Below, piece by piece: positions 465-57,272 of a DNA stretch of 64,000 nucleotides. Within the stretch, counting starts at the first letter, position 1, and the number at the start of each line of letters is the position of its first letter. Origin of the DNA: Cyanophora paradoxa CCMP329 (lineage: Eukaryota > Plantae > Glaucophyta); assembly GCA_004431415.1 (NCBI GenBank), contig QPMI01000174.1:62001-126000 (forward strand), written 5' to 3'. The notes under the pieces were generated by a model. That model saw only the letters and a program-made list of their open reading frames with translations, made no database searches and was not told where the DNA came from. The position numbers and the translations under genes were made by a program.

Positions 465-483
465 TTAATATATTAAAACATAA

Positions 484-1326: not shown

Positions 1327-1362
1327 TGCTTCTTTTACTAAGAAGGAAAGAAAAATAAACCA

Positions 1363-1671
1363 TTAAGCCAATGTGATAAGATTAGATCCAAGAGATTGGT
1401 AAGCGGTCGTTAGACATTGGATATTTGATGTCATCGCTTTAAGGTTTGAATCACATTCGCCATAACGTGTTACGGGATCACCATAAGCCGATTGCGCAAG
1501 GACATTAACCAAGAGGTTTTTATATTCATGAACAACTGGGGACAGTTTGTTAGTTTGTTGTATCGTTTTTTCGACAGTTTGTAGTGCGGCTACAAGTTTG
1601 ATAGTATCAAAAGCGAGAGCGACAGGCTCAGAAGTAGTAGAAGGAGATCCACCAAGTGGATAGGTCGCCAT
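1363..1671 (-). CDS. Hypothetical 102-aa protein, B-specific
   Basis: Tightly packed, co-oriented ORF between the fibre gene and 484-1326. Confidence 0.6.
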   Translation of the reverse strand: MATYPLGGSPSTTSEPVALAFDTIKLVAALQTVEKTIQQTNKLSPVVHEYKNLLVNVLAQSAYGDPVTRYGECDSNLKAMTSNIQCLTTAYQSLGSNLITLA

Positions 1672-1674
1672 TTA

Positions 1675-2894
1675 TTATACTGTGACATTTTTAATTTGGT
1701 CTATTTGATCTTGTAGACCCTTGCATTTCTTAGATAATTCTTTAACGGCTTCTATGAGAACAGGAATTAAACCCGTGTATTCGAGAGAAAGGTAGCCATC
1801 ATCTTTTTTAACATTAACTACCTCTGGTATTACCTTTTGAACATCTTGTGCAATTAAACCTAATCTCGTTCCATCTTTTTCGCTTCCAATTCGTTTAAAA
1901 CTCACTCCTTCTAATTTCCCAATCGCTGAAAGAGCGCCGGTTATCTTTTTAATATCGGTTTTGTATCTTATGTCACTTCCTTGTGTTAAATAACCTCCAA
2001 TCCACATCCATCCTCCATGATACATGTAACAAATATCAGTATCTTGTTCGTTTCGGAATACAAGAGGAATATCTCCCCCTCCTTTCAAATATGTAGAAGT
2101 TTGGTTACCGAAATGGATACGATTATATCCATCACTTGAACTAAACCAAGTCCCCACAGATCCTGTTAAGATATTTGGTTTACTATAAACGTTATTCCAA
2201 TGAATATAGCCGGTGTGACCACCATAACTATTTCCTACCCAAATTTTCATGTAACTAATACCCATAATATGAACTCTTCCAATCTTTGGTCTAATCCGAA
2301 TAGTGAGGAATCTATTTCCAAGATGTATTGGAACATTATTTAAACCACTGTGGTTACCATCAGGCGATGTGGCGTATGGTTGATAACTATTCACTGATGT
2401 AATAAAAACTTCATTCCCTTGTCTATTAACTCCCCAAATTTCAAAAAGTCGTGAGTTAGTCCAAGGTAAATAGGTTAAAAATGCTGTTCCTGTGTGGTAT
2501 CCATCGGGTATATCGAAGTCAATCCAAGCGGTAGAAGTTTCGTCATCAGATTGATTATTATGGACATATGAACCATAATTATAATATGGATCCCATGCTG
2601 TACTCCATGCCCATGTCCAACCCTCAGAACATCTATTAAATGCAATACCTCCTACTGTTTTATCTGCTGTGTGAAACTTTGGGACATCATTACCGTTTAT
2701 TTGGAGTTTGGTAGTAGCATTAATAGTGGGTGCTGTAATAGTGTTATTCACCCAAAAGTTACCATTACCATATGATTTTAAAATTGCTGCATTCGCTGAG
2801 TTTCTAAATTCGACAGATACACCATCGCCATTTTCATAGCCTCGAATATATGTAGTTTGACCATTTCCAAACCAAATTCGCTCGACTGCATCTA
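1675..2894 (-). pseudogene. 3' part of B fibre gene, with C-terminal peptidase S74 intramolecular chaperone domain; separated from its 5' part by element A
   Basis: SDIRYKTDIK...GLIAQDVQKVIPEVV...LEYTGLIPVLIEAVKEL is the S74 pattern. The frame is open up to the TSD. Confidence 0.85.
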
Positions 2895-2900
2895 CTGATT
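2895..2900 (+). repeat. Left target-site duplication CTGATT of element A
   Basis: Same hexamer at 34563-34568, directly outside the right terminus. Confidence 0.92.
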
Positions 2901-3052
2901 ACACATAGGGATACCCCTGTTCCAAGCCCTCCGGCCTTCGGCCTACAGGCTTGGAACAGGGGTATCCCTATGTGTGCGCGTTTTAGGCACTAAGGTAGTA
3001 AGCATTTCTTTTAGGTCTTAGGGTATTAATTACGTCTTTTGGGTACCAGCAG
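2901..3052 (+). repeat. Left TIR; 2901-2975 is a hairpin (28-bp perfect stem, 19-nt loop)
   Basis: acacatagggatacccctgttccaagcc / ggcttggaacaggggtatccctatgtgt. The inner TIR matches the reverse complement of 34409-34487 imperfectly. Confidence 0.92.
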
Positions 3053-3067
3053 GGAGTGGGTAGACAT

Positions 3068-3163
3068 GGTAGAGGGTTGTTTGTAAACTTTCTAAGGGAA
3101 ATCTCTTCTCGCGGGAATTTTTACATATAACCCTCTACCCTCTCTACCCTCTCTACCCTCTCT
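3068..3163. repeat. Subterminal CTACCCTCT x3 repeats with an inverted copy (ggtagagggtt)
   Basis: Read directly from the sequence. Confidence 0.6.
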
Positions 3164-3564
3164 CATCCATGTTCAAACCTCCTCTTCTCATGGTGTAATC
3201 TCTTTTTGATCACTGCCCCAAATCCAACAGCATATTTGTTTATCTCCTCCTCCAGCTCAAAAGCAATTAAACTTGTATTCCTTTCTGCCTGTTTTCCACA
3301 GCTGAATATATCTATTGCTAACATGCCTTGATCACTGTAGCAATGAGCAGAGCAATGGCTTTCATCTAATAATAATACTTGGGCAAATCCAGGGGGTGAT
3401 TTGGTGCCATCAAAAATCTCAGCATGTTTGTGGACAACCTGTATTCCATATTTCTTGATGATGTCTTCACTGACAGTCATGAGCCATTTAGAGAGCCCCA
3501 CATGGTCGCTAATTGGTTGGCTGAATTGGAAATCAAGCATCACATGGTAACCTTTGGCAAGCAT
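3163..3564 (-). CDS. speD: Prokaryotic-type pyruvoyl-dependent S-adenosylmethionine decarboxylase-like proenzyme
   Basis: GxH start motif, PPGFAQVLLLDESHCSAHCY (ESH autocleavage site) and AIDIFSCG; ~130 aa. Confidence 0.8.
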   Translation of the reverse strand: MLAKGYHVMLDFQFSQPISDHVGLSKWLMTVSEDIIKKYGIQVVHKHAEIFDGTKSPPGFAQVLLLDESHCSAHCYSDQGMLAIDIFSCGKQAERNTSLIAFELEEEINKYAVGFGAVIKKRLHHEKRRFEHG

Positions 3565-3611: not shown

Positions 3612-4982
3612 TCATCCTGCCCTCCTCCTTGATCTCGTGGAAATTGCTGGAGCTTCATAGGTCTCCTTTGAATTTGAGAAATCTCTATACCACCTTACTG
3701 CCTCTGCTCCCCCTGCTAATCTCTCTGTCCCTGCCACCCTCAATCTTTCCAACTCTCTCCCTTGTTTCTTCTTCTTCCCTGCTCTGTCCTCCAATAAAGG
3801 TTTATCCGGCACATTTGGAGCCCTCTCAATCCCCTCTCTGGCCAACAGTCGCTCTGTTCTGGCCTCTTTCTTTGCCTCTTCAATGACATTTATTGATGGG
3901 GCTTCCAGAAACTCCACGGTTTCCACTTTCTGTAATTCGTAGTGGGCATAAAGTCGATCTATTAGTTTGCCAGAAATGTCCCTTAGTTTAAATTTGAACC
4001 CCTCCACTCCTTCTATTGTGAATATTTCGCGGCTCCAATTATTCCCTTGTTTGGCAAATGGGCTCTTCTCTATTTTAGTTCTCACGTGGCTCCCTGCTGG
4101 ATAGTCTTTTAGATATTCAATTGACTTCATGAATTTCTCGTTTTCTTTTCCGAGTATTAGAGGAACATGTACCTCTGTGGTCTCTGCTGGTTTCATCCCC
4201 GTTGCTGAGTGGATGGTATTATTGTAGTTGTAGGCAAAATCTTGGAGCTTGTCGAAAAACTTTACAGTATTATTCGCTATACAATACGAGTTAATTAGCT
4301 TCTTTATTGTGCGATTAAAGGCTTCTATTCGGCCTTGGCTATTGTGATCTCCAACCTGCGAAACTTGGTGCTCAATCATCTGGGTTTCTAAATGGTCTTT
4401 AAATACCTTGTTCAGGAATTCGCTCCCAGCATCACTTTGTATCTTCACAATTGGACGAGGGACTTGTTGCTCAAGCTCCTTAAATGCGTTCAATGTGCTT
4501 TCTGCTGTCTTTCCCCTCATGGGAATTATAAAGCCCAGTCTGGTGGTATTTTCTACAGCTGTGAGGAACGTGTTGTAGCCTTGATTCTGTTTGCTGTACG
4601 AAGGATAAAAGATTAGGTCTATGGCATAGCAGTCGAGTGGCTGTCTTATTGGGATATAGGCAGTCTTCTTGGCAGATGGGAGGGGTTTATTTATCTGGTT
4701 GATTTCTTGGGCATCATAGAATCTACGGATTGTCTTTCTTGGCACATCTGGAAGCTCTTTGGCCAATGAAGCAAGGCCTTTAAATCCTACCTTGGTGTCA
4801 TAGAATGTCCTTGCTAAGGGATCCAAGTGAGGCACAGCAATGGCAGTTGGGATATCCGCAGGAACTAAAGCTTTGAGGTCACTCTTTTTCTGAATGCGAC
4901 CCCCTCTCTCCTCTTGAGGGATTGGGATTGGCAATATACTCACATCGTACTCTGTTTGTCTGCGTGTGATCTTTGATGACAT
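3612..4982 (-). CDS. Retroviral-like (rve) DDE integrase, Polinton type
   Basis: AIDLIF, IQSDAGSEF, GRIEAFNRTIK, YNNTIHSATGMKP, WSREIFTI. Confidence 0.92.
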   Translation of the reverse strand: MSSKITRRQTEYDVSILPIPIPQEERGGRIQKKSDLKALVPADIPTAIAVPHLDPLARTFYDTKVGFKGLASLAKELPDVPRKTIRRFYDAQEINQINKPLPSAKKTAYIPIRQPLDCYAIDLIFYPSYSKQNQGYNTFLTAVENTTRLGFIIPMRGKTAESTLNAFKELEQQVPRPIVKIQSDAGSEFLNKVFKDHLETQMIEHQVSQVGDHNSQGRIEAFNRTIKKLINSYCIANNTVKFFDKLQDFAYNYNNTIHSATGMKPAETTEVHVPLILGKENEKFMKSIEYLKDYPAGSHVRTKIEKSPFAKQGNNWSREIFTIEGVEGFKFKLRDISGKLIDRLYAHYELQKVETVEFLEAPSINVIEEAKKEARTERLLAREGIERAPNVPDKPLLEDRAGKKKKQGRELERLRVAGTERLAGGAEAVRWYRDFSNSKETYEAPAISTRSRRRAG

Positions 4983-4993
4983 CTATATTGGGA

Positions 4994-7900
4994 TTAGAAA
5001 GCAATCTTGGACATCTTCACATTAAACGTCTCATTATCAAGCTTCTTTTGAACAGTCATCTCGATTTGCTTGGGTTTTTGGTGGAGCACATGGTCTTTAT
5101 AATCTTGGAAAGACAGATCTGCTTGAATGGTCTCCTTACAAACACCTGCCAGCTTTTTTATTTCCTCATCATCTGTTTTAATGCTGTAGCATTTCGGCCT
5201 TACCCCAGCATATTCAATAATGGTTCTGCCCTCAAACTCATTTTTGAACTTTCCAAGCTCTGTGGGGTGTGTGTCAATGTCTTGTAGGTCTTTTGCTATA
5301 GTTTTCGAATTTATTTGAAGGCAAAGCGAATCTGTATCAGTAAAAAGCAGTTTACAGTCTGGCCATTTCCGCTTGATGGTGTTATAATAATAATCAAATA
5401 GGCGCAGCTTGGCAAGATCTAAAACAACTGCCCCAATTGCTATGGGCTTATCTAACTTGACATCTTTTTGTAGCATTTCGAAGGCTACTGCTGAATCGCT
5501 TAGTCTTGTTTCTGCTTTGAGTAGGGGCGATCTGGCGTATTTCATAAATTGCTTTTCGTTGGTGGCAATCTTGACATTAGACCTTCCTCTCACTTTCTCA
5601 ATGGTTTTGCCAAAAAGGCTATTGTTCATGATCTTAAAGAAGTCCTTTTCGGGTTTGGAAGGGGCTGCTTTGCGGTTTTGGGCATTGGATTCGACGTAAG
5701 GCTTCATAAAGGCAGCCTGAGTAAATGTTAGCACCCTGTGGATTTTGGTGACCTTTAAGCCTTGCGCTACCATGAATTGGAGCAAAGGTTTCGACACCAC
5801 ATAATTACAAATGTCTTCGCAGGCTGCTTGAAGTCCATCCTCTGCTCTCTTGATGACAAGAGGTAGCTCTTTGTGGAGTTGATGGAGGTGCTGGGGATAA
5901 TGGATGTCAACTTCTAAGATGGCCCCTCTGCTGATGACAGGTCGTAATTTGAGGGTTCTGGGTGCCATTGGAAATTCGAGAGGGGTAGCGTTTGGGACAG
6001 GGCATATCCATATAGGTTATTGGCATCCAAATATATAATGTGTCTGTCCCTTTCCTTTTTGGCATATTTATGATTCATAATCGAAAGGCCTCCCTGATCA
6101 TGCCTTCAACCATGTTGTACATATCAAGGTTGGAAAGAAGCTCGATTTTAGGCTTGGTAATAGATAGCATGCTGTCCCACGAAAGCCCCGGACTTGAGAC
6201 ATAGTGGGCAGCATCCATCCCAAAAGTTTTGTGTGATTTCTGGCGGAAAAGCTGGAACTTTTCCATTAATCCTTCCACGTTCTGGACGCCATAATCAATA
6301 AAGTTTTTGATGTCAATGAATTTGAAACAGCCCCAGGTGATCGACATGTAGCTGTCAAACGATTTTGCGAGGACTTCCACCCTTTTTTCGGGATTTAAGG
6401 CGACTGCCTTGAATATCTGCGTTCCAGATAGGGACAGATCATTGGTCACTATGGGAATCTTGGTGAGATTGCTGGTGCGTCTGTGGAGATTACATTTGCG
6501 ACATGCTGTGCCTACAAAATCGCCAGTTTGGTGGTCGTGATCCCTCACTTTATAGTTGTCTTGGGAAAACGTACCCTCACAGATGTAGCAGGTTTTAGCA
6601 AGGTAATGGGTACGTTTCTGCTCTTTGGTCAGTGACATTGGGATGTTGGTAAATAGGGCTTTGAATAGCTCTGGGGCTGTGCTGTCGAGGGTACTCAGGA
6701 GCTCAAAGATGTTGGAGTGGGTTTTAGTGAGTACTACTCTATTATTATGAAGAGCTGTCAGTGAGATTGATTTGATCTTGAACATACCAGAAATATCTGT
6801 TTCATAATCGAAATAGCAATAGGCAATCACGGGGAGGAATACAGTCTTTGAGAGATGTTTAAGACCAAATTCAATGAATGTGGGTTGTTTTGGGGTCTCT
6901 CCAGCACTTGTCTTCCAATCCACACAACGTTTGCTTTGAATGTGGGATTGAAGCTTCTCCTCAGTCTTGAAGTGGTTGGAACAGGTTTTACAGAAATGGA
7001 GTCGCTGCTTATCATTTTTAGCTAAGACTCTGGACATGCTGAATATTGTGGTATAATGACTGTTACCATTTTCGTCTGTAATTAGCAGCAGATCCACTTG
7101 GTGTTTCCTGTTCCTTGAGGAGCTGTTGTGGAGTAGATTAATTTCTTCTGTAGAGTTAGAGGGGTCGTAAATATTAACAGAGATTGCTGGATTGAGATTT
7201 TCAAAGAGATCAATAGTATCAGCATCTGCCTTTACAGGAAACTCAATGCCCTCGAAATTTAGTTCTTTTTTGAACCACCTCCTGTATTGGGAAGTCTCAT
7301 TGCGCTTGTGGCTATTTACTTCGTCCTTGTGAATATAAGAAAGGATAGCATACTCAAAGCATCTATTGTCCTTGTTATTAACATTGACAATGGCTCGTTT
7401 ATTTTTGAGCCACTCTGGGAGTGGGATAAAAGCACCTCCTGAGATGGGTTTAAAGGACAGAACAATCACTCTCAAAGCCTCAATGCTTTGGAGTTTATAG
7501 CTGTCTGTGACATTAATTTGCGACTGGCATTCCTTAGCCAATTTCGCAGTTTCTTTAGTGAGGGTTCGAGATCTTGTCATGATAGCATAGGTGCTGTAAA
7601 TGTGCTTGGTAATAAAGTCTCTCGAATTGTTTGCTTTTGAAAAGCGACAGACAAACGTAAAGCGAGTTTTAATCGACATCTGTGAATTGATGGCATCTTG
7701 GAGCCTTGTGTGGAGTTCCTCAGAGTAGGTGTCTATAAACTCTTGAGTGGTCAGGATCTGGTGGTGAGCCCTGATGGTAAAATCAATGTATTTATTATTA
7801 AGAGCACGATGTTCATTTATTAAGGTAGTGTATTCATCTCCTCTGACTTGAGTTGTGGTAGTTTGTTCGACTTGGATTTGGCCAAGGCGATCAGTCTCAT

Positions 7901-8087
7901 CAAGGGTCTCGATTTTCCCTAATAGCTCTCGATTGAGAGCTTGAAGCCCCTTGAGCTTCTTGTTGGTCTGTTTAATATAAGATTCATATTCACTTTCACT
8001 GATGGAGTGATTGGCCAGTAAGAACGCCAGATTCCCGAGAATCTTGTCCTGGAGCTCCTTAATTTGGTAGTGGCTGGGGCGGGGCAT
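4994..8087 (-). pseudogene. Protein-primed family B DNA polymerase (A), split by frameshifts near 5970-6090
   Basis: YLDANNLYGYA read at ~6001-6040; KIMNNSLFGK, FTDTDSL, RPKCYS; endonuclease VII-like CYIC...RDHDH.TG...ACRKCN; vOTU-like DNRCF/SHY. Collinear with B 42448-45729. Confidence 0.88.
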
Positions 8088-9033: not shown

Positions 9034-11307
9034 ATGGCTCCCTCATTCAGCTCAATCAACCCCAATGGCAACACCTTCATTCTCACTGAGCGCATCCACA
9101 GAGGTAACCTCAAATGGGTGGTGGAGAACTTTGATAATCTCCAGTTTCGCCCTGAAACTGACAAGACCCAAATGAGAGCCATCATCCAGAAATTACTTTC
9201 TATCGTCGATCATGAGGGCTACCACACCTGTAAATATAAGCAGGTGAAGCACAACACTGGTAGGTACTTTGTGGATGGAAAAACCCCCAGCCTTCAAAGC
9301 ATCTGTAGGGAAATTCGCCACACCATTTCCAAGGACTACTACTATGACATTGACATTGTGAACTGCCACCCTGTCCTGCTTGTTCAGTATTGTGAGAAAC
9401 ATTCAATTGCCACTCCTCAGCTGAACAAATATGTTCAGAGCAGGGATGAAATTCTTGATGATCTCTGTGAGGTCACCCAGAAATCCAAGGCTGATGTCAA
9501 GCGCAGCATTCTGGCAGTCATCAATGGTGGGCAAGGGGCTGACCTCTCTAGCCTACTTATCAATCACAAGTACTTCAGTGATCTCAAAGAGGAAATGGCC
9601 AAAGTCCATCAATTCATTGGTGGGATTGAGAAGCAGCGCTTCTATGCTATTGCTAAGCGCAAGAAAGAAAGCAATGTACTTGGTTCCACCATGAATATGG
9701 TACTATGTGACCTTGAGAATCAGGTGTTAATGGCTGCTTGTGAGTACTTCAGTGCTCTTAAGCTCCATGTGGATGTCTTGGTCTTTGATGGATGTATGAT
9801 CAGGAAAGACCCCAAAGTATTGAGTGCTTTGGAAGAGGTTAGTGATTATGTGGAGGGAAAAACTGGCTACAGGGTGACTTTTGTGGAAAAACCTATGGCC
9901 AGTGGGTTTGATGTACCTGAATGTCAAGCTTCCCTTTCCAACATTGATTACAAGACTGCTCCAATTCCTACCAACTGTGATTACATGGAGATCAAGCCCT
10001 ACATGGATGCCAGACTTGCTCACATTATGAAGCCTGGGTTTGTCTTGTCTTGGAATGATCATACCAAGAAGTATGACACAACCAGCTTCAAAAGCTTGGC
10101 TGAGGATGTATACCCTCACATTCAGTACACAGAGTTTGACCTAATGTCTATGAAGATGGAGCCTCATAACTTCATCAAAAAGTGGGCGAAAGATGAGACT
10201 GCCACAAGGTATGATTACTTGGACTTCCTCCCACCTCCTGTAAAATCTGCTTCCACCACTGCCAAGGTGTTTAATGCCTATGCTGGTATGAAAGGTGAGC
10301 TTATGGATGTGAGTGAAATGGATATTCCTCCTGATGTAACTGAGGAAGATGTTAGCCCATTCCTTGACCACATGATGATTCTCAGTGGTGAAGATGCTTC
10401 TACATTCAATTACATAATGAAGTACTTTGCCCACATTATTCAGAGACCTGGGGAGTTGAATGGGATTTCAATCATCTTCAAGGGAAAGCAAGGAGTGGGG
10501 AAGAACATCATATTGGATTGGTTTCAAAATGAAATACTGGGTGGGGACTTGGCTTTCAGCACAGCCAACCCACTGAAGGACTTATTTGGAAACTTTGCCC
10601 ACCAGCGAAAGCACAAACTACTTATCACTGTGAATGAGGCAAGTGGCAAAGACACCTTCACAAACAGTGATGCCCTCAAGGACATGATCACTGCTGAGAA
10701 AATTGTAATTGAGGCTAAGTATGTCAATTCTCATGAGGTGAGGAATTTTGCCAGGATCATATTTACTACCAACAACACCCTACCAATCAAAGTGGAGGCT
10801 GGAGATAGAAGGTTTGTGATTGTGGAGGTGAGTGACAAGAAAAAGGGTGACATGAAATATTTCAAGGCACTGGGTAATTGGCTGAAGGAGCCAAGAAACC
10901 AGCACATGGTATTCCTTTACTTGAAAAACAAGGTGGATGTCACAGACGTGAACTGGTATGCTGACAGGCCAATGACCAACAGCTACTACCTTGCCCAACA
11001 AGCAAGTGTTCCTGTCACTGCCTTGTTCACCAAGGATTTGGTAGACACCCAAAAGATTACCAAGGATACACCAAGGACTGAGAACAGGCAACAGGTGTGG
11101 GAGTGGTTCCAGCAGTTCATTACAATTAATAAATTCAAGAATGAATTCAGCTCAAGGAAGTTCTACATTGAGATGGCTGGACTGGAATATGTGAGGCCTA
11201 CCAAGTATTGTGGAAGGGAGTGTTATGTCTTCAAGTGGGATGAGATGATGGCTTACTTCAAGAGCTGTGGGCTGTTGGTGGAATTTTTGGAAGAGGAGGA
11301 GGATTAG
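9034..11307 (+). CDS. TVpol (PolA-like primase/polymerase) fused to an SF3 helicase (DUF5906-like)
   Basis: TGRY...SLQ...REIRH...DIDIVNCHP...INGG...LENQVL...LVFDGCM; Walker A GKQGVGKN, Walker B ITVNEA, motif C FTTNN, GDRRF. Confidence 0.82.
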   Translation: MAPSFSSINPNGNTFILTERIHRGNLKWVVENFDNLQFRPETDKTQMRAIIQKLLSIVDHEGYHTCKYKQVKHNTGRYFVDGKTPSLQSICREIRHTISKDYYYDIDIVNCHPVLLVQYCEKHSIATPQLNKYVQSRDEILDDLCEVTQKSKADVKRSILAVINGGQGADLSSLLINHKYFSDLKEEMAKVHQFIGGIEKQRFYAIAKRKKESNVLGSTMNMVLCDLENQVLMAACEYFSALKLHVDVLVFDGCMIRKDPKVLSALEEVSDYVEGKTGYRVTFVEKPMASGFDVPECQASLSNIDYKTAPIPTNCDYMEIKPYMDARLAHIMKPGFVLSWNDHTKKYDTTSFKSLAEDVYPHIQYTEFDLMSMKMEPHNFIKKWAKDETATRYDYLDFLPPPVKSASTTAKVFNAYAGMKGELMDVSEMDIPPDVTEEDVSPFLDHMMILSGEDASTFNYIMKYFAHIIQRPGELNGISIIFKGKQGVGKNIILDWFQNEILGGDLAFSTANPLKDLFGNFAHQRKHKLLITVNEASGKDTFTNSDALKDMITAEKIVIEAKYVNSHEVRNFARIIFTTNNTLPIKVEAGDRRFVIVEVSDKKKGDMKYFKALGNWLKEPRNQHMVFLYLKNKVDVTDVNWYADRPMTNSYYLAQQASVPVTALFTKDLVDTQKITKDTPRTENRQQVWEWFQQFITINKFKNEFSSRKFYIEMAGLEYVRPTKYCGRECYVFKWDEMMAYFKSCGLLVEFLEEEED

Positions 11308-11790
11308 GGGGGCTCATGATAGGTTTTTGGGGGGGGTTCAAGACGTCTGGGGGACCTTCTGGGGGACCTTCATTTTTTACTTTCTGGTTGTTTTATGACC
11401 AGAAATGGTAATAATGTATAGACATAGGGGGGTTAGGGGACCTAGGGGGGGATATATAACTCCTATAGCCTCCAACTCTTTTTCATTTTTAAGCAACAAG
11501 CCAGAAATATATAGAGTTGTGAGTGAATACCCCCCTACCCACTCAACAACCCCCTAATCCCCCCTAAACCCCACCTTCCAGACTGAGAATGGTAACCTAA
11601 ACAACAAGACGTCAGTTGGCAGAAACCCCCCCTAACTTCACCATGAGTCCCCTAACCCCCCCAAAACCCACCCCACCTGTTTGTAGACCACCAGCACTTA
11701 AGGACATCTTCATATAGCATGGTGAAGAGCCTAAGCCCCCCAAGTGCCCACCAAAAATTGATTTTTGACACCCCCAACCCCCCAAACAGT
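11308..11790. repeat. G-tract block followed by a C-tract block (degenerate TTAGGGG/CCCCTAA inverted repeats)
   Basis: For example ggggggttagggggacctaggggggg versus cccctaatcccccctaaacccc. Confidence 0.6.
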
Positions 11791-11815
11791 CTTACATAAG
11801 CCCACCAGTACCACC

Positions 11816-12052
11816 ATGGACTCAGACAGCAGCTATGATGACATCCCCCTTGAGGACATGGTTGAACTATGGGAGGCAGTCAGGCAGCAGTACTATGATG
11901 AATATAGAAAGGCTCCCCAAGACATCAACCCCCAGAAATGTAAGGAATTGCGCAGATTGATGAAGGCATATGAGAACATCATATGTGATAACTATGGCAT
12001 GGAGGGGTATGCCCTACTCTACAAAGCGAATTTTAGCTGGAGAAAGTCATGA
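11816..12052 (+). CDS. Small hypothetical protein (MDSDSSYDD...)
   Basis: ATG in good context ~55 bp downstream of an AAAATTGA motif. Confidence 0.5.
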   Translation: MDSDSSYDDIPLEDMVELWEAVRQQYYDEYRKAPQDINPQKCKELRRLMKAYENIICDNYGMEGYALLYKANFSWRKS

Positions 12053-12371
12053 AAATTGGAAGTATCCCATCTCCAAATCTCCGATTCATCCCGTGATACT
12101 ATCACCGTTGGATGCCTCGTAAAAAGTAGATATTTATAGACCCCAACATCATAGCCTTACGATGATCTGGTGACGAGCTACGAATATTTTCAGGTTCGCA
12201 TATACCATATATATATACCATAATGATATATGTATATGATATATCATAATGTCACATGACATATATATATAACATAGCTTTCCGGACTCGCCGCGTCATG
12301 GCGATCACGGCGCTGTAGTAGGTGCGAAAACGTGTTTTTTTTTCATATATATCATATACATATATATGAGC

Positions 12372-12585
12372 CAGCCTACCGGTCAGCAGTAGGCACTGTA
12401 TGGCAGCCTACCGGTCAGCAGTAGGCACTGTATGGCAGCCTACCGGTTAGCAGTAGGCACTGTATGGCAGCCTACAGGTCAGCAGTAGGCACTGTATGGC
12501 GGCCTACAGGTCAGCAGTAGGCACTGTATGGCGGCCTACAGGTCAGCAGTAGGCAAGCCCGCCTGCCTACCGTACAGCAGTAGGC
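12372..12585. repeat. 32-bp tandem array, ~6.5 units, each with a GCCTAC-N9-GTAGGC palindrome
   Basis: Unit cagcctaccggtcagcagtaggcactgtatgg starts at 12372, 12404, 12436, 12468, 12500 and 12532, plus a degenerate seventh. Confidence 0.9.
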
Positions 12586-12779
12586 GGTTTTTTCCTTATA
12601 GAGCTCTATAAGAACTTTTCTAAAACTTTCAATTAGAGCCACTTAAGGAACTTCAAACGCGAATATCTCGGCACCAGATTGGCCGTTTTGAGCGCTCTTT
12701 TTTTTCCTGTGAAGCTCTCATCAAGCTCTACGCAGAGCCGCCCCTTTCGCATTTTTATGCTGCCTAAAAGTAGATTATT

Positions 12780-13016
12780 ATGACAACTCCCATCCATACT
12801 CGCCTTGTAGAGGTGTCCTTTGAACTCTCATATTTGGCGCTGACGTCTCCAAGCTCAGAACTGAGTAACTCCATACATCGCCTCTCTATAGAACTGTACA
12901 ACCTTGGACACCGCATAGCTCCTTTGTCTCCACACATTAAAGCAGCCTTACAAAAAATATCAAACGACCTTCTCATGCTTGGAAACGAGATTAATACCTT
13001 CCCTGATGGCCAGTGA
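12780..13016 (+). CDS. Hypothetical 78-aa helical protein
   Basis: ATG after an AT-rich leader; converges on the next gene. Confidence 0.35.
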   Translation: MTTPIHTRLVEVSFELSYLALTSPSSELSNSIHRLSIELYNLGHRIAPLSPHIKAALQKISNDLLMLGNEINTFPDGQ

Positions 13017-14314: not shown

Positions 14315-14342
14315 TGTGTCTTTATTAAAGTGAGAGATATTT

Positions 14343-15124
14343 TTATAGACCGCGTTTATATCGCATTAACTTATTACTATGAACTTGGCTTTTCACTTCT
14401 TTGCGCCCCTCTTCTTTCTCTGGTGGTTTAAGCTCATCTTCTTTCTTTTTTGGCTTCCTGTGGAACCGTGGAAATGGGAAATCTTTGACCAAATCCGCTT
14501 TATCTACGAAATATTTCACAGAATAATCGGCAGATGACCAAATTAGGAACTGGTAGGAATGAACGTACTCTTCAAACATTTTATAGAAAACATCTTTGTC
14601 CCGCATTATATTATATTCTTCCTCAATGGCTTCAAGCTCCTTTCTATTGGCAGCGCTTAGGAACATAGCATAATCTGAGTTGACGCGAATGGTCGATGAG
14701 ACTTTCCTTAGCTTTTGTGTGATACAGATAATAGATATTTTCAAATGTCTGCCCATAGAGTACAATTTGTTGATTATTTTATCGCGAGTGAGATCGACCA
14801 AGTCATTATCAATTAGATCGTCCAGTACAACTAAGAGTTGATTAATCGGCTCTCCTTTTTCTATTTTCTGTTGTCGATCTTCCAGAACCTTTTCAATGTA
14901 AGGAGCATCCCATTTGCCAAGCTGAACACTTGCTACATTGTTCCAAAAGTTGTTAAAAGCCGTTCCACTGATTACAAGGACGACATCAATCTTTTTGGCA
15001 TCATGAAGCTGCTTGAGCCAATACTTTACAGCCTCTGATTTACCAGTAGCAGATTTGCCAATTGCCAAAACGCGGAAAGGGGATTTATCATCTCACCAGC
15101 ATTAAATTCGTCCAAGTCGCCCAT
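14343..15124 (-). CDS. A32-like (FtsK/HerA) packaging ATPase, copy 1; 1-bp deletion near 15080
   Basis: GKSATGKS, LLVVLDD, GRHLKISIICITQ. The start MGDLDEFNAGEMI matches B's MVELEEFNAAEMI. Confidence 0.88.
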
Positions 15125-15177
15125 GCTTCCTTCTATAAAGAACCAGATAAAAATAATACGATGTGACTGAATATGGT

Positions 15178-16548
15178 TTATAGATTGATCCGCCGCAGCC
15201 CGTCCTTGTCCACTATGATAAAGCTGTGCATGAGAGCGCGAACATTGACATCAATTGCCTTGTCAGTGGGCATGTAGAGAGTGAGGAATGAAGATGAAGA
15301 ATTGGTCAGGTCAACATAGCCAGACTGGGCAATATTGCGAATAGCCTTTTCACCATCAAGACAGAATGGCAGCCCTGAAAGAACATAGCGATCAGCAACC
15401 TTATCCATATTAGAGCATTTGAAGACATCAGCAATCAGCTCAGCACCCTTGAGCAGTGGAATAGGCTCAGTGGCATAAAGTCGCTGGCCGTTTATTTCAA
15501 TTGTGAATGTGATCTCTTTGGAGTTGGAGTAGGTCTTAAGTACACTGTGGGAACCATTTGCTTTGTCAACATTAGCGTTATCACGAACTGAAACAAGCAG
15601 AGCATAAACGAGACCTGAGATTTGGGAGAGGTTAACTCGATTGGGTTGGGCACCACCCTTGGCTTTCATATCACTGACATCCACAAATCCAATATCCAGA
15701 GCAGGGATAGCCATGCCAGTTGTCTTTACCTTCTCAATAACAGTAGCAAAAAGCTCATCAGACACATTAACAGCATACATGTAAAGGCGAGGAGAAGTAA
15801 TTGTAATTTCAGTGCTCGGCGCACCAAGATTGAAAGTGGTGATGTTTTGGCCAACATGTGCCAGCACAGATTCAGCAGGTGCGACGCCAAGCCCATCGTC
15901 CTTGTCCCCATCAATGGCTGTGTCCCCAGCCTTAGGAAGAGTACGACCACCATAAGAAGTCTCAACATAACCCTTCCCTACATCCTTGAACCAAACAGTT
16001 ACTACCATTTCACCAGACAGAGCACCAAGAGGCAGGTAGTGGTTTAGCCAAGGCACAGGAATTTCGACGAAGAAAGAACCACCAAGTCGGTTGGTTCCAT
16101 GGGCGGGGATGCCGTGAAGCATACCCATTGACCGCTTCTTTTTGGCAAGTTGATCCTCACTATAATAGACAAGAGGGAAATGAGCAAGGAAATCAGAAGG
16201 GATATGGTAGGTGTATGACCCATAGGTAATTTCAAGTCGCTGAACCAAAGCACCCACTGGGCGAGTGTACCCATTCCGAACAAGATCCGCATCACCAAAA
16301 GTGATAGCTGGAAGGTCAAAGGCAAGTTCGAGTTTGCCACAGAAATTGTAGCGAGGGAGTTTGAATGAAATGCGATTTCCAACATTATTTTCAAAAGTAT
16401 TGCTCGGGTTCACAACAACAAGAACGGGCTTAGACTTGGATTCAAGACCAAGCATAAGGGAGTTATCCAGAAAGAAGGCCTTGGCCTCCTCTGGGGTTGT
16501 TAGGGCTTCTTTCAACGAAAGGCGCTGGAGGGTCGACGTAATATCCAT
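15178..16548 (-). CDS. Probable double jelly-roll major capsid protein, copy 1
   Basis: 456 aa, beta-rich, ISFKLPRY...KLELAFDLP pattern, between ATPase and penton, strongly conserved with B. Fold inferred. Confidence 0.72.
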   Translation of the reverse strand: MDITSTLQRLSLKEALTTPEEAKAFFLDNSLMLGLESKSKPVLVVVNPSNTFENNVGNRISFKLPRYNFCGKLELAFDLPAITFGDADLVRNGYTRPVGALVQRLEITYGSYTYHIPSDFLAHFPLVYYSEDQLAKKKRSMGMLHGIPAHGTNRLGGSFFVEIPVPWLNHYLPLGALSGEMVVTVWFKDVGKGYVETSYGGRTLPKAGDTAIDGDKDDGLGVAPAESVLAHVGQNITTFNLGAPSTEITITSPRLYMYAVNVSDELFATVIEKVKTTGMAIPALDIGFVDVSDMKAKGGAQPNRVNLSQISGLVYALLVSVRDNANVDKANGSHSVLKTYSNSKEITFTIEINGQRLYATEPIPLLKGAELIADVFKCSNMDKVADRYVLSGLPFCLDGEKAIRNIAQSGYVDLTNSSSSFLTLYMPTDKAIDVNVRALMHSFIIVDKDGLRRINL

Positions 16549-16602
16549 GATTTTCGCTTTTATTATACTGTAACATAAAAAAATTACGAATGATCCTTGT
16601 GT

Positions 16603-17634: not shown

Positions 17635-17682
17635 ATATTAAAATGAACCGGCTTGTCAATGTTGATAGCAGGGATCGCAGCC

Positions 17683-17898
17683 CGCCGCCGCGCCGGCGTT
17701 GGCCGGCGTCGGCGCGGGCGGACCCGGGAGGCTAGGCGCAGCGGCAGACCTTCCCCCCGCGGCCGCGGCAGAGCTCGAGGGAGCGACGAGCACAGCTGTG
17801 CAGCATGCGCACCGATGGAACAGATGCGAGTTTGATGCCCAGCTGCAGCTGCGACGTTCGCTGCTGCGTCTCGCGGCCGCGGTCGCGTGAAGTGAGAG
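17683..17898. other. 216-bp GC-rich foreign (host-like) filler at the duplication junction
   Basis: Abrupt composition change; no match noticed elsewhere in the window. Confidence 0.8.
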
Positions 17899-18100
17899 GA
17901 TCACTGGTGGACGTCTGTGGGGCTTTGTCATCAAAGGATTCCTCATAGGCGGCATTAAGGGGATCCTCTTGCTGTTGTGAGGGCTTTATCTCATTCATTC
18001 CATTGAATTTAAGCGGGTCTGTGTTAATGGAGCCATTGTTACCACCACCTGAATAACCAACAGCCCCAGCAGGGATGCCTATTTTGCGTTTGGGGGGCAT
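17899..18100 (-). pseudogene. Truncated duplicate of 13697-14314 (5' part only, fused to the filler)
   Basis: Identical first ~67 aa. Confidence 0.85.
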
Positions 18101-18128
18101 TGTGTCTTTATTAAAGTGAGAGATATTT

Positions 18129-18910
18129 TTATAGACCGCGTTTATATCGCATTAACTTATTACTATGAACTTGGCTTTTCACTTCTTTGCGCCCCTCTTC
18201 TTTCTCTGGTGGTTTAAGCTCATCTTCTTTCTTTTTTGGCTTCCTGTGGAACCGTGGAAATGGGAAATCTTTGACCAAATCCGCTTTATCTACGAAATAT
18301 TTCACAGAATAATCGGCAGATGACCAAATTAGGAACTGGTAGGAATGAACGTACTCTTCAAACATTTTATAGAAAACATCTTTGTCCCGCATTATATTAT
18401 ATTCTTCCTCAATGGCTTCAAGCTCCTTTCTATTGGCAGCGCTTAGGAACATAGCATAATCTGAGTTGACGCGAATGGTCGATGAGACTTTCCTTAGCTT
18501 TTGTGTGATACAGATAATAGATATTTTCAAATGTCTGCCCATAGAGTACAATTTGTTGATTATTTTATCGCGAGTGAGATCGACCAAGTCATTATCAATT
18601 AGATCGTCCAGTACAACTAAGAGTTGATTAATCGGCTCTCCTTTTTCTATTTTCTGTTGTCGATCTTCCAGAACCTTTTCAATGTAAGGAGCATCCCATT
18701 TGCCAAGCTGAACACTTGCTACATTGTTCCAAAAGTTGTTAAAAGCCGTTCCACTGATTACAAGGACGACATCAATCTTTTTGGCATCATGAAGCTGCTT
18801 GAGCCAATACTTTACAGCCTCTGATTTACCAGTAGCAGATTTGCCAATTGCCAAAACGCGGAAAGGGGATTTATCATCTCACCAGCATTAAATTCGTCCA
18901 AGTCGCCCAT
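18129..18910 (-). CDS. Packaging ATPase, copy 2 (same frameshift as copy 1)
   Basis: Same translation as copy 1. Confidence 0.85.
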
Positions 18911-18963
18911 GCTTCCTTCTATAAAGAACCAGATAAAAATAATACGATGTGACTGAATATGGT

Positions 18964-29900: not shown

Positions 29901-32626
29901 GAAGATATCCCATTAACAGCAGGTTTACCTCCACTTCCATTAGATCCAGTGAGTTATGATGATAAAGACGCCATCTTACAAGTAAACGTTACAGATGTAA
30001 GCGCAACCGATGGATCAAGACCGAAAATAATATTTAGTCGCTCGAAATTCAATTACGCACCACTTGTGGGACAACCAAAAGATGATTTCGGGAAATGTGA
30101 GATGGCGTGGATCAAAACATTAGCAGGTGGCGCCTTAGAAGTCAATCAGAGAATGGCGGCAAAAAATTTACACAATGAGACCCTTTCAGGTGTTGTCACA
30201 GATGATTACCTTGAAAGCAAAAATTATGTAGACGATACAGAACTTGCAGCAATTCTTGAAGAATATGTGACTGAACAGGAACTTAATGTAGCATTATCTA
30301 ATTATCTACCACTCAATGGTGGAACCATTACCAGCAACTTGGTGGTGACAAGCAACCTAACAGTTGGAGGGAAAATTCAAATGGGAACCGGAAGCTATTT
30401 AGAATCTTATAGTGAAAATTTTTATCGAATCACTTCCAATTTTGATCCAGCTTCTAACATTCCAATTGTATTTTTGCTTGGAAGGCATCAGGGGTTCACG
30501 GTCAAAATGCAGCATCAACAATTCTTTACAATAGGGTCTCCTCAATCGTTCCATCTATAACTGTCAGTTCCACAGGAAGTCCCTACTACTCATCCAATAT
30601 TGCTATAAATAATCAGATGACTTTAACAAGCGATTCAGGGAACTTCTCAGCAAACTCAACGATGACAAGAACAATTGATTGGTCACAAGGTTTGACATTC
30701 TTCTATATTGGAAGATATCATTTAACACAAACAGGTGCTTCTCATACACATTTGAGAGTGCTAAAAACAACATCACCAACGCGATTTGCCTACTATGGAG
30801 CAAATAATTCAACAACATTAGGGACAACTACTTTCGCTATAAATGGTGTAACACAACCTCCAATTGCTGTCACAGTTCCCTCTTTGGTAAATAAATGGTA
30901 TTACTCAGACCAAACAATAACTTCTACAAGCTACACAGTTGGGCTAAATGGTGTCGATGTGGGAACTCTCACAGGAATTAATAATTATTTACCTGATTCC
31001 ACTATAAACGATTTTGGATTTGGATCAATATTTGCGGGAAGCATTGCTGAGATTATTGTATTCAACAGAGCATTAACCACAGCAGAAAAACAACAAGTAA
31101 GGTATTACATTCAACAAATGTATGGTTTCCCCAATACTCAACCAATCTTAACTCGGGAAATTCTGAATATTATCGGCAAAGACAGATTAACACTTAGCAA
31201 TTTGGAGATACCCACACACACTCACACAAAATCACAAATAACAGATTTTGCCCACACACATTCCCGATTAGAGATTCCAGATTTTGCTCATGTTCACACA
31301 AAAGATGAGATTTCAGATTTTGACCACACACACACATGGAACAGTATCACAGATAAGCCTTTAACATTCACACCTTCACCACATCCACATTTATGGAGCC
31401 ATATTACGGATAGACCCACCTTAGCAACAGTTGCAACAAGCGGAAATTATGATGATTTAATTAATAAACCAACATATACAACACCCACAAATTTCGATGC
31501 TACAAGTGGTATTTCCACAGACTACACAGGAGATTGGAGAGGTTACTTCGGGTCACCATTGACAAATACAGACACTTGGGCGAACACATGGGTTGATGGT
31601 GATTTTGATTGTAGTAGCTGTAAGATGTATTGGACTGTCCCAGCAGGAATGAAATCATGTTATATCTATTATACCTGTCTGTATAACAGTAGATACTTTG
31701 ATGTAGTGGGAATTGATTCATCGACAAATACTTATGTTTATTCAAGAGTAAATGCCTATGCTCCTTCTATTCAGCCTTCTCAATATAAACAGTTTGTTGG
31801 AATAAATTGTGAAGGACTTGTTAAAGTTGGTGTTCATGGACAAATAGGAAGAATTTGTCTTCCAGGTCCGATTACTGTTGGTTGGAGTAAAAATCCTGCT
31901 GTATCATCACACAGTGGCTTCTTGCATTGGGATAACATTTACGGGAAACCAACAGCTTCCACAACTGTCGGACCTCACTCTCACACTAAATCAGATATCA
32001 CCGATTTTGCACATACTCACACAAAGGCAAATATAACAGATTTCGCCCATACTCACACGAAATCGGAAATCACAGATTTCCCAACCTTAGACCCATTTGT
32101 AGCAAATACGATCACAGCAAATAATACCATGTATGTGGGATCCGGTCAAATTTACCAACCAGACTCTCCTTTATTCTACGAACAGTGGTTCTTCCACAAT
32201 TCCGCGAACATATACGATAAAACACTATTATGTCGTGGCAATGCTTACGCAAGAGCATACTATGCGATGGATGAAAAAGACAATGGTAAGATTGCGAAAC
32301 TTGTCTCAGAACAACGGGTCAATAAAGACCAGTATATACAGACAGGGAGTTTTTCAAAATCCTTAGCAATCACAGGTCCGGGTCATTGGGGATTTCCACA
32401 AGTTGTCACATTCCCAAAAGCGTTTGCAGAAGCCCCAGCAGTCGTTCTCAATTTAAGAGATGGGTATAATGGTGGTTCATATGTATTGGTATATGGTGTC
32501 ACAAGTTCCACAACAACAACATTTACTATTCATGCCACAATTTCGGCAAATAGAGAATACAATGAAAGCATTGGACTTTTCCACTATCAAATGACTTATA
32601 TAGCAACAGGGAAGATGGTAGCATAG
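23953..32626 (+). CDS. Giant modular fibre/spike protein of A (~2890 aa if ~5 frameshifts are repaired)
   Basis: Six consecutive ORFs, largely homologous to the single B fibre. HxH/WxxIxxKP tail-repeat motifs, YLPLTGGTITG motifs, LamG-like domains and a phage-fibre-type C-terminus (VTFPKAF...P.VVL...YIATG). Confidence 0.75.
28251..28484 (+). repeat. 6 x 39-bp coding repeat (PLTASNVVxEWIA)
   Basis: Seen in translation and in the DNA. Confidence 0.85.
28701..31143 (+). repeat. ~660-bp intragenic duplication of a LamG-like domain (28701-29359 and 30485-31143)
   Basis: Near-identical DNA at offset 1784; about six substitutions noticed. Confidence 0.9.
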
Positions 32627-32666
32627 ATATTCGTTTATTTTTCTATCCTTCTTAGTAAAAGAAGCA

Positions 32667-33512
32667 ATGGGTGAATACAACCGAGTCCAATTACCGGTTT
32701 ACGCATTGGGTGCGCCCGCAATTCATTTCAGACAACATGAAGTATCCGATGAGATTCGTGGTATGGAATCAACAGAACGCGCAAACTCAGGAAATGCGTT
32801 CGATAAAAACAGTGTGATTCGCGTAAAAGAACTACGAGCCGATAAGAATTCGGGTGTGGTAAAAACAACTCAATTATTGGTTACAAATGCGAATTTTCAA
32901 TCAGCAAACGGAGAACCCGATGCGTATGGTGTAGATATCAAAGCATTCCAATTCGACAATACGCGAGCCGCCGCCGTTATCCGATCAGGAGGCGCTGTTA
33001 TTGGTGGTGGATGCCGAGTATCCGGAATGCTTGGCTCTTCTGCTGCGTTTAACGATATTCCGGACACCTTACCTGAACATGCAGATAATCCCCAACGAAT
33101 GCGTATGTTTCTTCCATGTGGAGATTCCCCATATGCTTTTGCTATCATACGAGCAAATGTAAATATAAATGATGCTACCCAACCCCAAGGTATTGACGGA
33201 CCTTGGAAAATGGCTGATCAACTTTTACCGAAAGCGATTTACTCCATGTGTCGCTCTCAGAATGGAGGTGTAGAAGGATATACATTCATTGTTCAAGCGG
33301 TAGGTCATGGAGGGCGTGGATGGGTTATAAGAAATCCTGCAACACAACCCAACACTTTTGATTTTTGGGCATCTGAGGTTGGAGGTTATGATATTTTAAT
33401 TTTTGGATATCGTAATGATGAAGCAGCATGGGCTGTTGCCAACTGTATAAATCCTGATTCGCAGGTCTCGAATTTCTACAATGAACCATTTCCGAATGAT
33501 CCCATTCCGTAA
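32667..33512 (+). CDS. Putative fibre-associated protein 1 (A)
   Basis: Homologous to 484-1326 and paralogous to the next gene. Confidence 0.8.
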   Translation: MGEYNRVQLPVYALGAPAIHFRQHEVSDEIRGMESTERANSGNAFDKNSVIRVKELRADKNSGVVKTTQLLVTNANFQSANGEPDAYGVDIKAFQFDNTRAAAVIRSGGAVIGGGCRVSGMLGSSAAFNDIPDTLPEHADNPQRMRMFLPCGDSPYAFAIIRANVNINDATQPQGIDGPWKMADQLLPKAIYSMCRSQNGGVEGYTFIVQAVGHGGRGWVIRNPATQPNTFDFWASEVGGYDILIFGYRNDEAAWAVANCINPDSQVSNFYNEPFPNDPIP

Positions 33513-33531
33513 TTATGTTTCAGTATATTAA

Positions 33532-34377
33532 ATGGCAGCACCAGCACCACCAGAGCGCATTTTAACAGCGCAACTATCATTAGCTGCTCCAGCTAACCAC
33601 GTCTTACAGCATGCTATTATTGATAATATTGATGGTCTCGAATCCACAGAGATAGCCCCAACTCTGAATACTTTTGGTGACACTCACATGCTAAGACTAA
33701 AAGAGTTAAGATGTGACAAAAATAATGGGGTCGTTAAAACTACTAAACTTCTTGTAACAAATGCGAATTTCAACGCATTTCATGGGGATCCTGACAGCTA
33801 CAATGATGATAACAAGGTAACCAATTTTGCCTACGAAGCAAGAAGGGGAGCAATTAAATGTAGGTCAGGAGGTGCCTATATTGGAGATGGTTTAAGGGTT
33901 GGTGGAATTATTGGAGCGCCTTTATTAGTAAATGATCAACCCAATCCAGATGATCTGAATACAAGAATCAGGACATATGTCCCGGGAATGAATGAGCCTT
34001 ACATTATCAAAATCAACACAATCATTATCAACCTTCAGACTGCTGTTCTTGATGTTTTAGAGCCTTTGGGAAATCATTATAGATATACTGAGACGTTGCC
34101 TGCTGATATTTACGCATTATGTAGAAGAACAGATGGAGCAAGACCCCGTATTACTGTCCAAGTAGTCCCAGTAGATAATTTCGGACTTGCTTTCCATTCA
34201 CTGCCACTTCTTGACACACAAGATGACCAATATATTATAAGAGCTACCCAGCAAGGGACTTACACAGTGATAATGTATGCTGAAAGAAATGATGAAATAG
34301 CCAGAGGAAATAGATATGGTCAATATCTAACCACAAATTTATACAATCCCATTGGAGGAAGTGACCCTTTGCCATAA
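33532..34377 (+). CDS. Putative fibre-associated protein 2 (A)
   Basis: Shares KELR.DKN.GVVKTT.LLVTNANF with protein 1. Confidence 0.8.
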   Translation: MAAPAPPERILTAQLSLAAPANHVLQHAIIDNIDGLESTEIAPTLNTFGDTHMLRLKELRCDKNNGVVKTTKLLVTNANFNAFHGDPDSYNDDNKVTNFAYEARRGAIKCRSGGAYIGDGLRVGGIIGAPLLVNDQPNPDDLNTRIRTYVPGMNEPYIIKINTIIINLQTAVLDVLEPLGNHYRYTETLPADIYALCRRTDGARPRITVQVVPVDNFGLAFHSLPLLDTQDDQYIIRATQQGTYTVIMYAERNDEIARGNRYGQYLTTNLYNPIGGSDPLP

Positions 34378-34408: not shown

Positions 34409-34562
34409 CCCTACTGGTGCCAAAAAGACATGAATAATACCCTAAGACCTGAAATAAATGCTTACTACCCTAGTACCTGAAACGCGCACACATAGGGATA
34501 CCCCTGATCCAAGCCTGTAGGCCGAAGGCCGGAGGGCTTGGATCAGGGGTATCCCTATGTGT
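34409..34562 (-). repeat. Right TIR; 34488-34562 is a hairpin with a 28-bp stem
   Basis: acacatagggatacccctgatccaagcc-tgtaggccgaaggccggag-ggcttggatcaggggtatccctatgtgt. Confidence 0.92.
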
Positions 34563-34568
34563 CTGATT
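34563..34568 (+). repeat. Right TSD CTGATT
   Basis: Matches 2895-2900. Confidence 0.92.
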
Positions 34569-57260: not shown

Positions 57261-57272
57261 CCTACCCTCGTA

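What the first reader, a model, noticed from the sequence alone, without database searches (positions are those of the whole stretch)
2901..2975. Hairpin termini on an integrated Polinton-like virus, with a compensatory base-pair change between the ends
Seen: both ends of A (2901-2975 and 34488-34562) are 75-nt palindromes with a perfect 28-bp stem and an asymmetric 19-nt loop. The loop contains GGCC-GAA-GGCC, a GNA-triloop mini-hairpin. The left stem has tgTtcc/ggaAca and the right has tgAtcc/ggaTca, so each hairpin pairs perfectly with itself while differing from the other end. The inner TIR has drifted noticeably. Known: Polinton TIRs are generally described as simple inverted repeats used for protein priming, whereas self-complementary ends typify parvoviruses and hairpin-telomere replicons. 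Inference: one arm is copied from the other (fold-back priming or hairpin resolution), or a cruciform is selected for excision/integration. The ends read 5'-AC...GT-3' rather than the usual Polinton AG...CT.
Basis: partly seen in the sequence, partly recalled or inferred. Interest (0 to 1): 0.9.

Follow-up and report, generated by a model that had tools for sequence, protein, structure and literature searches.

The report
Hairpin telomeres of an algal virus
A virus integrated in what is probably an algal genome ends, on both sides, in a 75-base palindrome whose two arms change together, which suggests that the free virus likely has fold-back hairpin ends rather than the protein-capped ends usual for its relatives, an end type so far only proposed for such viruses in one 2026 preprint.

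Summary
A 31.7-kb integrase-bearing Polinton-like virus, flanked by a 6-bp target duplication, ends on both sides in a 75-nt palindrome (perfect 28-bp stem, GAA mini-hairpin in the loop). The two ends differ only at paired positions 20/56, while the inner repeat has 11 differences in 79 nt. Contigs from 3 of 4 runs show another hairpin version with a second paired change in the mini-stem. Best reading (0.5): the arms are the two strands of a fold-back end of the free genome. The phenomenon is not new: a 2026 preprint reports terminal palindromes and the hairpin-priming model for Halocafeteria virophages/PLVs, mostly in non-pPolB elements; this scan noted such ends in five findings on other genomes; AC-type Maverick ends are published. 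Added here: covariation, the GNA cap and the half-replaced replicase. The left-end allele appears to be a minority version and is not shown directly in the displayed contig rows. No free DNA was examined.

The parts
2895..2900 (+). Target-site duplication, left copy (6 bp)
   Evidence: empty-site contigs in 3 of 4 runs
2901..2975 (.). Left terminal palindrome: 28-bp arm, 19-nt loop with 4-bp mini-stem and 3-nt cap (GAA on the strand whose 3' end is terminal), 28-bp arm; T20/A56 version
   Evidence: DNA fold -37.5 / -38.2 kcal/mol for the two strands
2976..3054 (.). Left inner TIR (79 nt; 11 differences from the right)
3163..3564 (-). AdoMet decarboxylase-like gene
   Evidence: Pfam PF02675 E 2.6e-11
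3612..4982 (-). RVE (retroviral-type) integrase, open frame of 456 aa
   Evidence: Pfam PF00665 E 1.3e-5 (below the curated cut-off); 6-bp TSD fits
4994..8087 (-). pPolB: terminal-protein (LF/PAD-like) fold, vOTU with C243/H344, eroded exonuclease with ~100-aa deletion, EndoVII-like insert, palm motifs A-C present; two frame changes in this copy (near 6050-6100 and 5920-5960)
9034..11307 (+). TVpol (PolA-fold primase-polymerase) fused to an SF3/D5-type helicase, open frame of 757 aa
   Evidence: AF2 model pLDDT 88; PDB PolA hits; best viral hit Zamilon replication protein TM 0.81; Pfam PF19263, PHROG primase-helicase hits
11308..12990 (.). Mostly non-coding stretch with C/G runs, AT-rich tracts and six 32-bp direct repeats (12340-12587); candidate internal origin, untested
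   Evidence: function inferred
14343..14756 (-). A32-type packaging ATPase fragment (the gene is not one open frame here)
   Evidence: Pfam PF04665 E 0.003
15178..16548 (-). [quoted passage not shown]
   Evidence: its 58% relative P0001 has Atlas neighbours at 0.98 with capsid families on 12-18% of members; no direct Pfam/PHROG hit
17893..21467 (.). Second copy (99.9%) of 14107-17682, the ATPase-capsid block; real or assembly duplication not decided
22353..34377 (.). Patatin-discoidin gene and fibre/lectin-like genes
34409..34487 (.). Right inner TIR
34488..34562 (.). Right terminal palindrome, A20/T56 version, same loop orientation relative to its end as the left
34563..34568 (+). Target-site duplication, right copy

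Best explanation
The two palindromes are the true ends of an integrated Polinton-like virus, and they likely record a fold-back (hairpin) telomere of the free genome, in which the two 28-nt arms would be paired with each other. Shown: the palindromes start at the first base after the target duplication; paired positions change together; the 3'-terminal strand of both ends carries the GAA cap; the element has an intact TVpol-SF3 replicase and an exonuclease-eroded pPolB. Inferred: after excision the 3'-terminal strand folds back and primes synthesis, giving a hairpin-closed duplex that TVpol-helicase (with or without the pPolB palm) copies; a nick at the base of the stem, by the integrase or the EndoVII-like domain, frees the 3' end that is joined to the target, and host repair unfolds the hairpin into the arm-loop-arm seen in the chromosome. 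A substitution in the stem is then one ordinary duplex mutation and appears in both arms at once, while the inner repeats, needing no panhandle, drift apart.
For: Exact abutment of palindrome and TSD at both ends. One paired change between ends, chance about 0.003, against 11 unpaired inner differences. The left allele looks like a minority version in the family (table 8), and a rare allele present in both arms fits a single copying or repair event better than two selected mutations. A further hairpin version, identical in 3 of 4 runs, has the mini-stem changed on both sides (GGCC/GGCC to GGGC/GCCC), keeps the C-GAA-G cap, and its loose part is 45 nt = 28 + 17, as expected if it also begins at the stem base (table 7). 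GNA caps are the only triloops forming nuclease-resistant mini-hairpins (PMC13037366, passages). Intact TVpol-S3H. pPolB lacks ExoII (present in 120 of 120 homologs) and the ExoIII pattern (104 of 120), has 95 aa where 109 measured homologs have a median of 199, and has Asp where 106 of 114 aligned homologs have the Ser of G-S-G-W. In Halocafeteria such palindromes go mainly with non-pPolB replicases and particular RVE integrases.
Against: No free viral DNA was seen. The terminal-protein fold and the vOTU catalytic pair are kept in A and in the surrounding element B, and both keep a Ser one residue further along the linking loop, so protein priming may persist; the ACAC start suits jumping-back priming. 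Hairpin resolution often gives flip/flop loops, but both ends have one orientation, the variant probably too, and no strand-switch joint was listed in 4 runs (weak, contigs only). No HUH nickase or tyrosine recombinase was found among the 43 ORFs scanned. The T20/A56 allele is not shown in the displayed rows (30 letter rows and 55 loose-end rows were hidden), and whether the stem change in the variant is matched on its other arm is not visible.
Confidence: 0.5

Rival explanations
1. Streptomyces-like end patching: TVpol-helicase replicates from an internal origin and leaves 3' overhangs; the overhang folds into the GAA-capped hairpin, and the reduced pPolB survives only as a terminal-protein-primed patching enzyme.
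For: Streptomyces telomeres use GCA loops with sheared G:A pairs on 3' overhangs patched by TP priming (PMC4513846, passages).
Against: The linking loop lacks the Gly/Pro that Krupovic et al. found beside every predicted linking residue and is about 4 residues short; similar palindromes occur in elements without pPolB; paired changes would need repair in the folded overhang or selection; B's ends are outside the window, so the link between this pPolB type and hairpins rests on one element.
Confidence: 0.2
2. The palindrome works in integration, excision or as a primase signal rather than as a telomere: two head-to-head integrase sites or an extruded cruciform, or an ssi-like hairpin read by TVpol on a displaced strand, with pairing kept by selection.
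For: Each arm reads like a genome end; palindromes go with particular RVE integrases in Halocafeteria; the cap contains CCGAAGG, which also lies in the primase-recognised ssiA hairpin of RSF1010; EndoVII-like domain with D-H...N motif.
Against: A perfect 28-bp stem with a rare allele in both arms is more than a binding site needs; the EndoVII-like insert is in 105 of 120 pPolB homologs, whose ends I did not examine, so it is not specific.
Confidence: 0.15
3. The hairpins are real but the paired T/A difference is an assembly or polishing artefact, so there is no left-right covariation.
For: In 3 of 4 runs the left-type contig does not carry the window's letter at 2956; the assembly shows frame changes and a 99.9% duplication; a context-specific error would be mirrored in a palindrome.
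Against: The same context at the right end is unchanged; in the fourth run the left-type contig breaks exactly at 2957, as two alleles at 2956 would cause; the independent mini-stem covariation comes from run contigs, not from the window.
Confidence: 0.08
4. The palindromes are accidental fold-back repair products of broken ends with no function.
For: Offered as an alternative in the Halocafeteria preprint.
Against: Same structure at both ends, more conserved than the inner TIR, kept with a paired change in another version, GNA cap retained.
Confidence: 0.07

Closest known systems
Terminal palindromes of Halocafeteria seosinensis endogenous virophages (subtypes 1, 2, 5, 6) and PLV subtype 4 (bioRxiv 10.64898/2026.07.28.741278; passages and section 7 read, supplements closed)
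   Same: Palindrome at the TIR tip next to the TSD, RVE integrase, non-pPolB replicase present, hairpin-priming model.
   Different: Here a 28-bp stem with an asymmetric 19-nt loop and GNA mini-hairpin, paired substitutions, and TVpol-S3H beside an eroded pPolB. The words compensat-, covari-, flip and loop do not occur in that main text; its supplements could hold more.
Polintons/Mavericks (Polintoviricetes; TP-vOTU-pPolB, Krupovic et al., bioRxiv 10.1101/2024.03.18.585575, parts 1-2 of 5 read; end motifs in PMC8097293, passages)
   Same: pPolB with TP and vOTU domains, RVE integrase, 6-bp TSD, TIRs, short dinucleotide repeat at the tip, an AC-type end motif known from Monopterus.
   Different: Self-complementary ends, exonuclease eroded (as reported for mavirus), changed linking loop, extra TVpol-S3H, no maturation protease detected, divergent capsid.
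Sputnik/Zamilon-type TVpol-S3H replicases (PMC3671162, passages; bioRxiv 10.64898/2026.10.13.758929, section 11 and passages)
   Same: PolA-fold domain fused to an SF3 helicase (TM 0.81 to the Zamilon protein).
   Different: Those replicases go mostly with tyrosine recombinases; here it sits with an RVE integrase and a second replicase.
Parvovirus rolling-hairpin ends and poxvirus hairpin telomeres (recalled; cited as analogues in the Halocafeteria preprint)
   Same: Fold-back ends with small internal hairpins.
   Different: No HUH Rep found, no flip/flop seen, dsDNA capsid and integrase of another lineage.
Streptomyces telomeres (PMC4513846, abstract and passages)
   Same: GNA-capped hairpins on the 3'-terminal strand, a terminal protein encoded, possible internal origin.
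   Different: One long hairpin instead of several short ones; unrelated proteins; analogy only.

Membership tests
Polinton-like virus / Polisuviricotina integrated element | Double-jelly-roll major capsid gene and A32-type ATPase | tested here: met
   ATPase Pfam hits in A (fragment) and B; capsid assigned through relative P0001, Atlas 0.98 to capsid clusters, so indirect
Polinton-like virus / Polisuviricotina integrated element | TIRs and integrase-made 5-6 bp TSD | tested here: met
Polintons/Mavericks sensu stricto | pPolB plus RVE integrase | tested here: met
   pPolB has two frame changes in this copy
Polintons/Mavericks sensu stricto | Conserved exonuclease motifs I-III in pPolB | tested here: not met
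   ExoII 120 of 120 homologs but not A or B; ExoIII pattern 104 of 120 but not A or B; ~100-aa deletion
Polintons/Mavericks sensu stricto | TP domain with Ser/Tyr linking residue near Gly/Pro between alpha2 and beta4 | tested here: inconclusive
   fold present (LF/PAD hits Z 8-9); loop 192-196 has Thr and Ser but no Gly/Pro, and Asp at the conserved Ser column
Polintons/Mavericks sensu stricto | Ulp1-like maturation protease and Polinton-clade capsid | tested here: inconclusive
   no protease hit among 43 ORFs; capsid has only 2 relatives by phmmer; no tree made
Palindrome-ended virophages/PLVs (Halocafeteria type) | Palindrome within the TIR adjacent to the TSD | tested here: met
Palindrome-ended virophages/PLVs (Halocafeteria type) | Non-pPolB replicase with RVE integrase | tested here: met
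   TVpol-S3H; a pPolB is present as well
Palindrome-ended virophages/PLVs (Halocafeteria type) | Integrase of the same RVE clade | not tested
Rolling-hairpin replicons (parvovirus type) | HUH Rep nickase | tested here: inconclusive
   no such Pfam hit among 43 ORFs; several ORFs are unassigned
Rolling-hairpin replicons (parvovirus type) | Fold-back or closed ends on free DNA; flip/flop loops | not testable with these tools
   only integrated copies and run contigs seen; no strand-switch joint listed

The most novel reading that the evidence does not exclude
This lineage is caught between two ways of replicating its ends: a TVpol-helicase copies the genome from inside, and the old Polinton polymerase, stripped of its exonuclease, survives only to patch GAA-capped fold-back 3' overhangs with its terminal protein, a eukaryotic-virus counterpart of Streptomyces telomeres.
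Probability: 0.2. Interest if true: 0.8.

Novelty: new variant of a known kind. Interest (0 to 1): 0.52.

Why it matters
How integrase-bearing Polinton-like viruses without working protein priming replicate linear ends is open; the hairpin model rests on palindromes alone in one preprint. Paired substitutions are the first kind of sequence evidence I found that the arms really pair or copy each other (not in print in the main texts reached by searches; supplements of the preprints unseen). The element also holds both an intact TVpol-helicase and an eroded pPolB, so it could show how a protein-primed genome turns into a hairpin-ended one. The family is multi-copy in an organism with many public runs, which makes the tests cheap.

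Tried and rejected
No whole genome is held for this window, so other copies could be seen only through run contigs. A 16-base piece of the arm matched 2 viral and 119 metagenome loci (29 of 64 parts scanned); none of the 121 had both arms and the longest extension was 19 bases, so all were rejected as chance. Integrase, capsid, pPolB-alignment and whole TVpol-helicase queries found no related viral contigs. The TVpol alignment found 14 distant loci (21-34%); none showed a hairpin of this kind at a locus end, several loci do not reach their contig ends, and internal hairpins there were not used as evidence. Pfam and PDB sequence searches did not name the TVpol domain; the fold search did. No HUH nickase, tyrosine recombinase or protease was detected, which does not exclude them. 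Absence of strand-switch joints is weak because 28-bp arms are close to the assembly word length. Contig depth was not used as copy number. 'Post-insertion drift' of the inner TIR and 'fixed left-versus-right allele' were rejected. 'AC ends are unprecedented' was rejected. Earlier-finding look-ups by place, sequence and covariation words returned nothing.

Full report
Observation. Both termini are as described. Each is 75 nt with a perfect 28-bp stem and a 19-nt loop containing a 4-bp mini-stem with a 3-nt cap. Read from their own ends, the two differ only at positions 20 and 56, which pair with each other; the loops are identical. The 154-bp TIR has 11 further differences, all in the inner 79 nt (Fisher p 0.018; 0.005 counting the pair once). 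Six shuffles of 20 kb gave stems of at most 10 bp. On both ends it is the strand with the terminal 3' end that carries the C-GAA-G cap.

Boundaries. The same hexamer flanks both palindromes. Contigs from 3 of 4 public runs join the two flanks through a single copy of it, and the reading frames on the two sides are in register, so it is a true target duplication and the palindromes are the first and last bases of the element. The target is a fibre-like gene of a second, related element (B). The nearest named capsid relative is a Cyanophora paradoxa protein at 58%, and patatin-discoidin genes are reported from glaucophyte PLVs (PMC12220804, passages and a supplement search), so the host is probably a glaucophyte alga (inferred).

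Other copies. No genome was available; laid contigs of 4 of the 20 holding runs on 2700-3300. Left-type and right-type inner TIRs both occur as separate contigs in all 4 runs, so their differences are inherited. In 3 runs the left-type contig ends with one unaligned letter at 2956, so most left ends probably carry the right end's allele; in the fourth it breaks exactly at 2957, as two alleles would cause. The window's T20/A56 is thus probably a minority version. It is not shown directly: 30 letter rows and 55 loose-end rows were hidden, and I have no read view of the right end. A loose end identical in 3 runs shows another hairpin version with a 17-nt loop whose mini-stem is changed on both sides (GGGC/GCCC for GGCC/GGCC), the cap kept, and one more change in the long arm whose partner is not visible. 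Its length, 45 = 28 + 17, suggests it also begins at the stem base in the same orientation (inference). No strand-switch joint was listed, weak evidence against flip/flop.

Replication genes. A encodes an RVE integrase and two replicases. The 757-aa ORF at 9034 has a PolA-fold N-terminal domain (model pLDDT 88 from a 13-row alignment; PDB PolA hits; Zamilon replication protein TM 0.81) and an SF3/D5 helicase: a TVpol-S3H. The pPolB keeps palm motifs A-C across two frame changes, the TP fold (LF/PAD hits, Z 8-9, the signature used by Krupovic et al.; model from 61 of the 120 listed homologs plus B) and the vOTU Cys/His (120 of 120 homologs). Its exonuclease is eroded: ExoII absent (120 of 120 homologs have it), ExoIII pattern absent (104 of 120), about 100 residues deleted. 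In the predicted linking loop 106 of 114 aligned homologs (6 gapped) have Ser two residues before the conserved Trp, mostly in G-S-G-W; A and B have Asp there, a Ser one place later, no Gly or Pro, and a loop about four residues shorter. That this Ser is the linking residue is my inference from its position. The result is equivocal: priming may be lost or shifted.

Mechanism. I favour (0.5) a fold-back telomere: arms paired in the free genome, 3' fold-back priming, a nick at the stem base to give the integrating 3' end, and unfolding by host repair. It explains the exact abutment, the automatic pairing of substitutions, the GNA cap (nuclease-resistant mini-hairpins, PMC13037366) and the free drift of the inner repeats. 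All steps on free DNA are inferred. Rivals: TP-primed end patching as in Streptomyces (0.2; PMC4513846), which best explains the retained TP, vOTU and ACAC tip and the single loop orientation; a role in integration or as a primase signal (0.15); artefact of the paired change (0.08); accident (0.07).

Comparison. Terminal palindromes beside the TSD and the hairpin-priming model are in a July 2026 preprint on Halocafeteria virophages and PLVs, where they go mainly with non-pPolB replicases and where some elements carry two replicases; its main text has no mention of covariation, loops or flip/flop (supplements closed). AC-type ends are known in eel Mavericks and read as jumping-back repeats (PMC8097293). 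Exonuclease loss with an SF3 helicase is reported for mavirus. Passages of the cryptophyte PLV and EMALE papers had no hairpin or palindrome hits. This scan noted palindromic viral ends in five findings on other genomes (unchecked).

Verdict. Real feature, correct coordinates, plausible reading, but a variant of a kind already described. What is added is covariation at two positions, a conserved GNA cap and a replicase set that looks half replaced. Interest 0.52; the end-patching case would deserve 0.8 at probability 0.2.

Noticed in passing
window 2901-34562 and flanks: Strong avoidance of short palindromic words: CTAG 4 seen versus 60 expected and TGCA 18 versus 109 in element A; CTAG 3 versus 30 and GGCC 2 versus 18 in element B; none in the LINE. 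Looks like escape from restriction enzymes, perhaps of a helper giant virus (inferred).
   Followed up: partly
window 42448-45729 and 45868-48273: Element B has an open pPolB with the same eroded exonuclease and altered TP loop, and a TVpol domain (42% to A's) fused to a different, unassigned C-terminal part. Its ends lie outside the window.
   Followed up: partly
window 1-2900 and 34563-64000: A is nested in a fibre-like gene (ending in a Peptidase S74 domain) of a related Polinton-like element B with a rearranged gene order.
   Followed up: partly
window ~50100-58100: A 66% GC LINE-type retroelement (APE endonuclease, RT, RNase H) is inserted in element B.
   Followed up: no
window 14107-17682 and 17893-21467: 99.9% identical tandem copy of the ATPase-capsid block; real duplication or assembly artefact.
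   Followed up: no
window 3054-3153: A weak 100-nt imperfect palindrome directly inside the left TIR (70%).
   Followed up: no
L134 7003-7144 and 18099-18226; L123 1242-1359; L122 8179-8461: Long internal hairpins, one a perfect 56-bp stem, upstream of TVpol-helicase genes in distant viral contigs; possible origins or end junctions.
   Followed up: no
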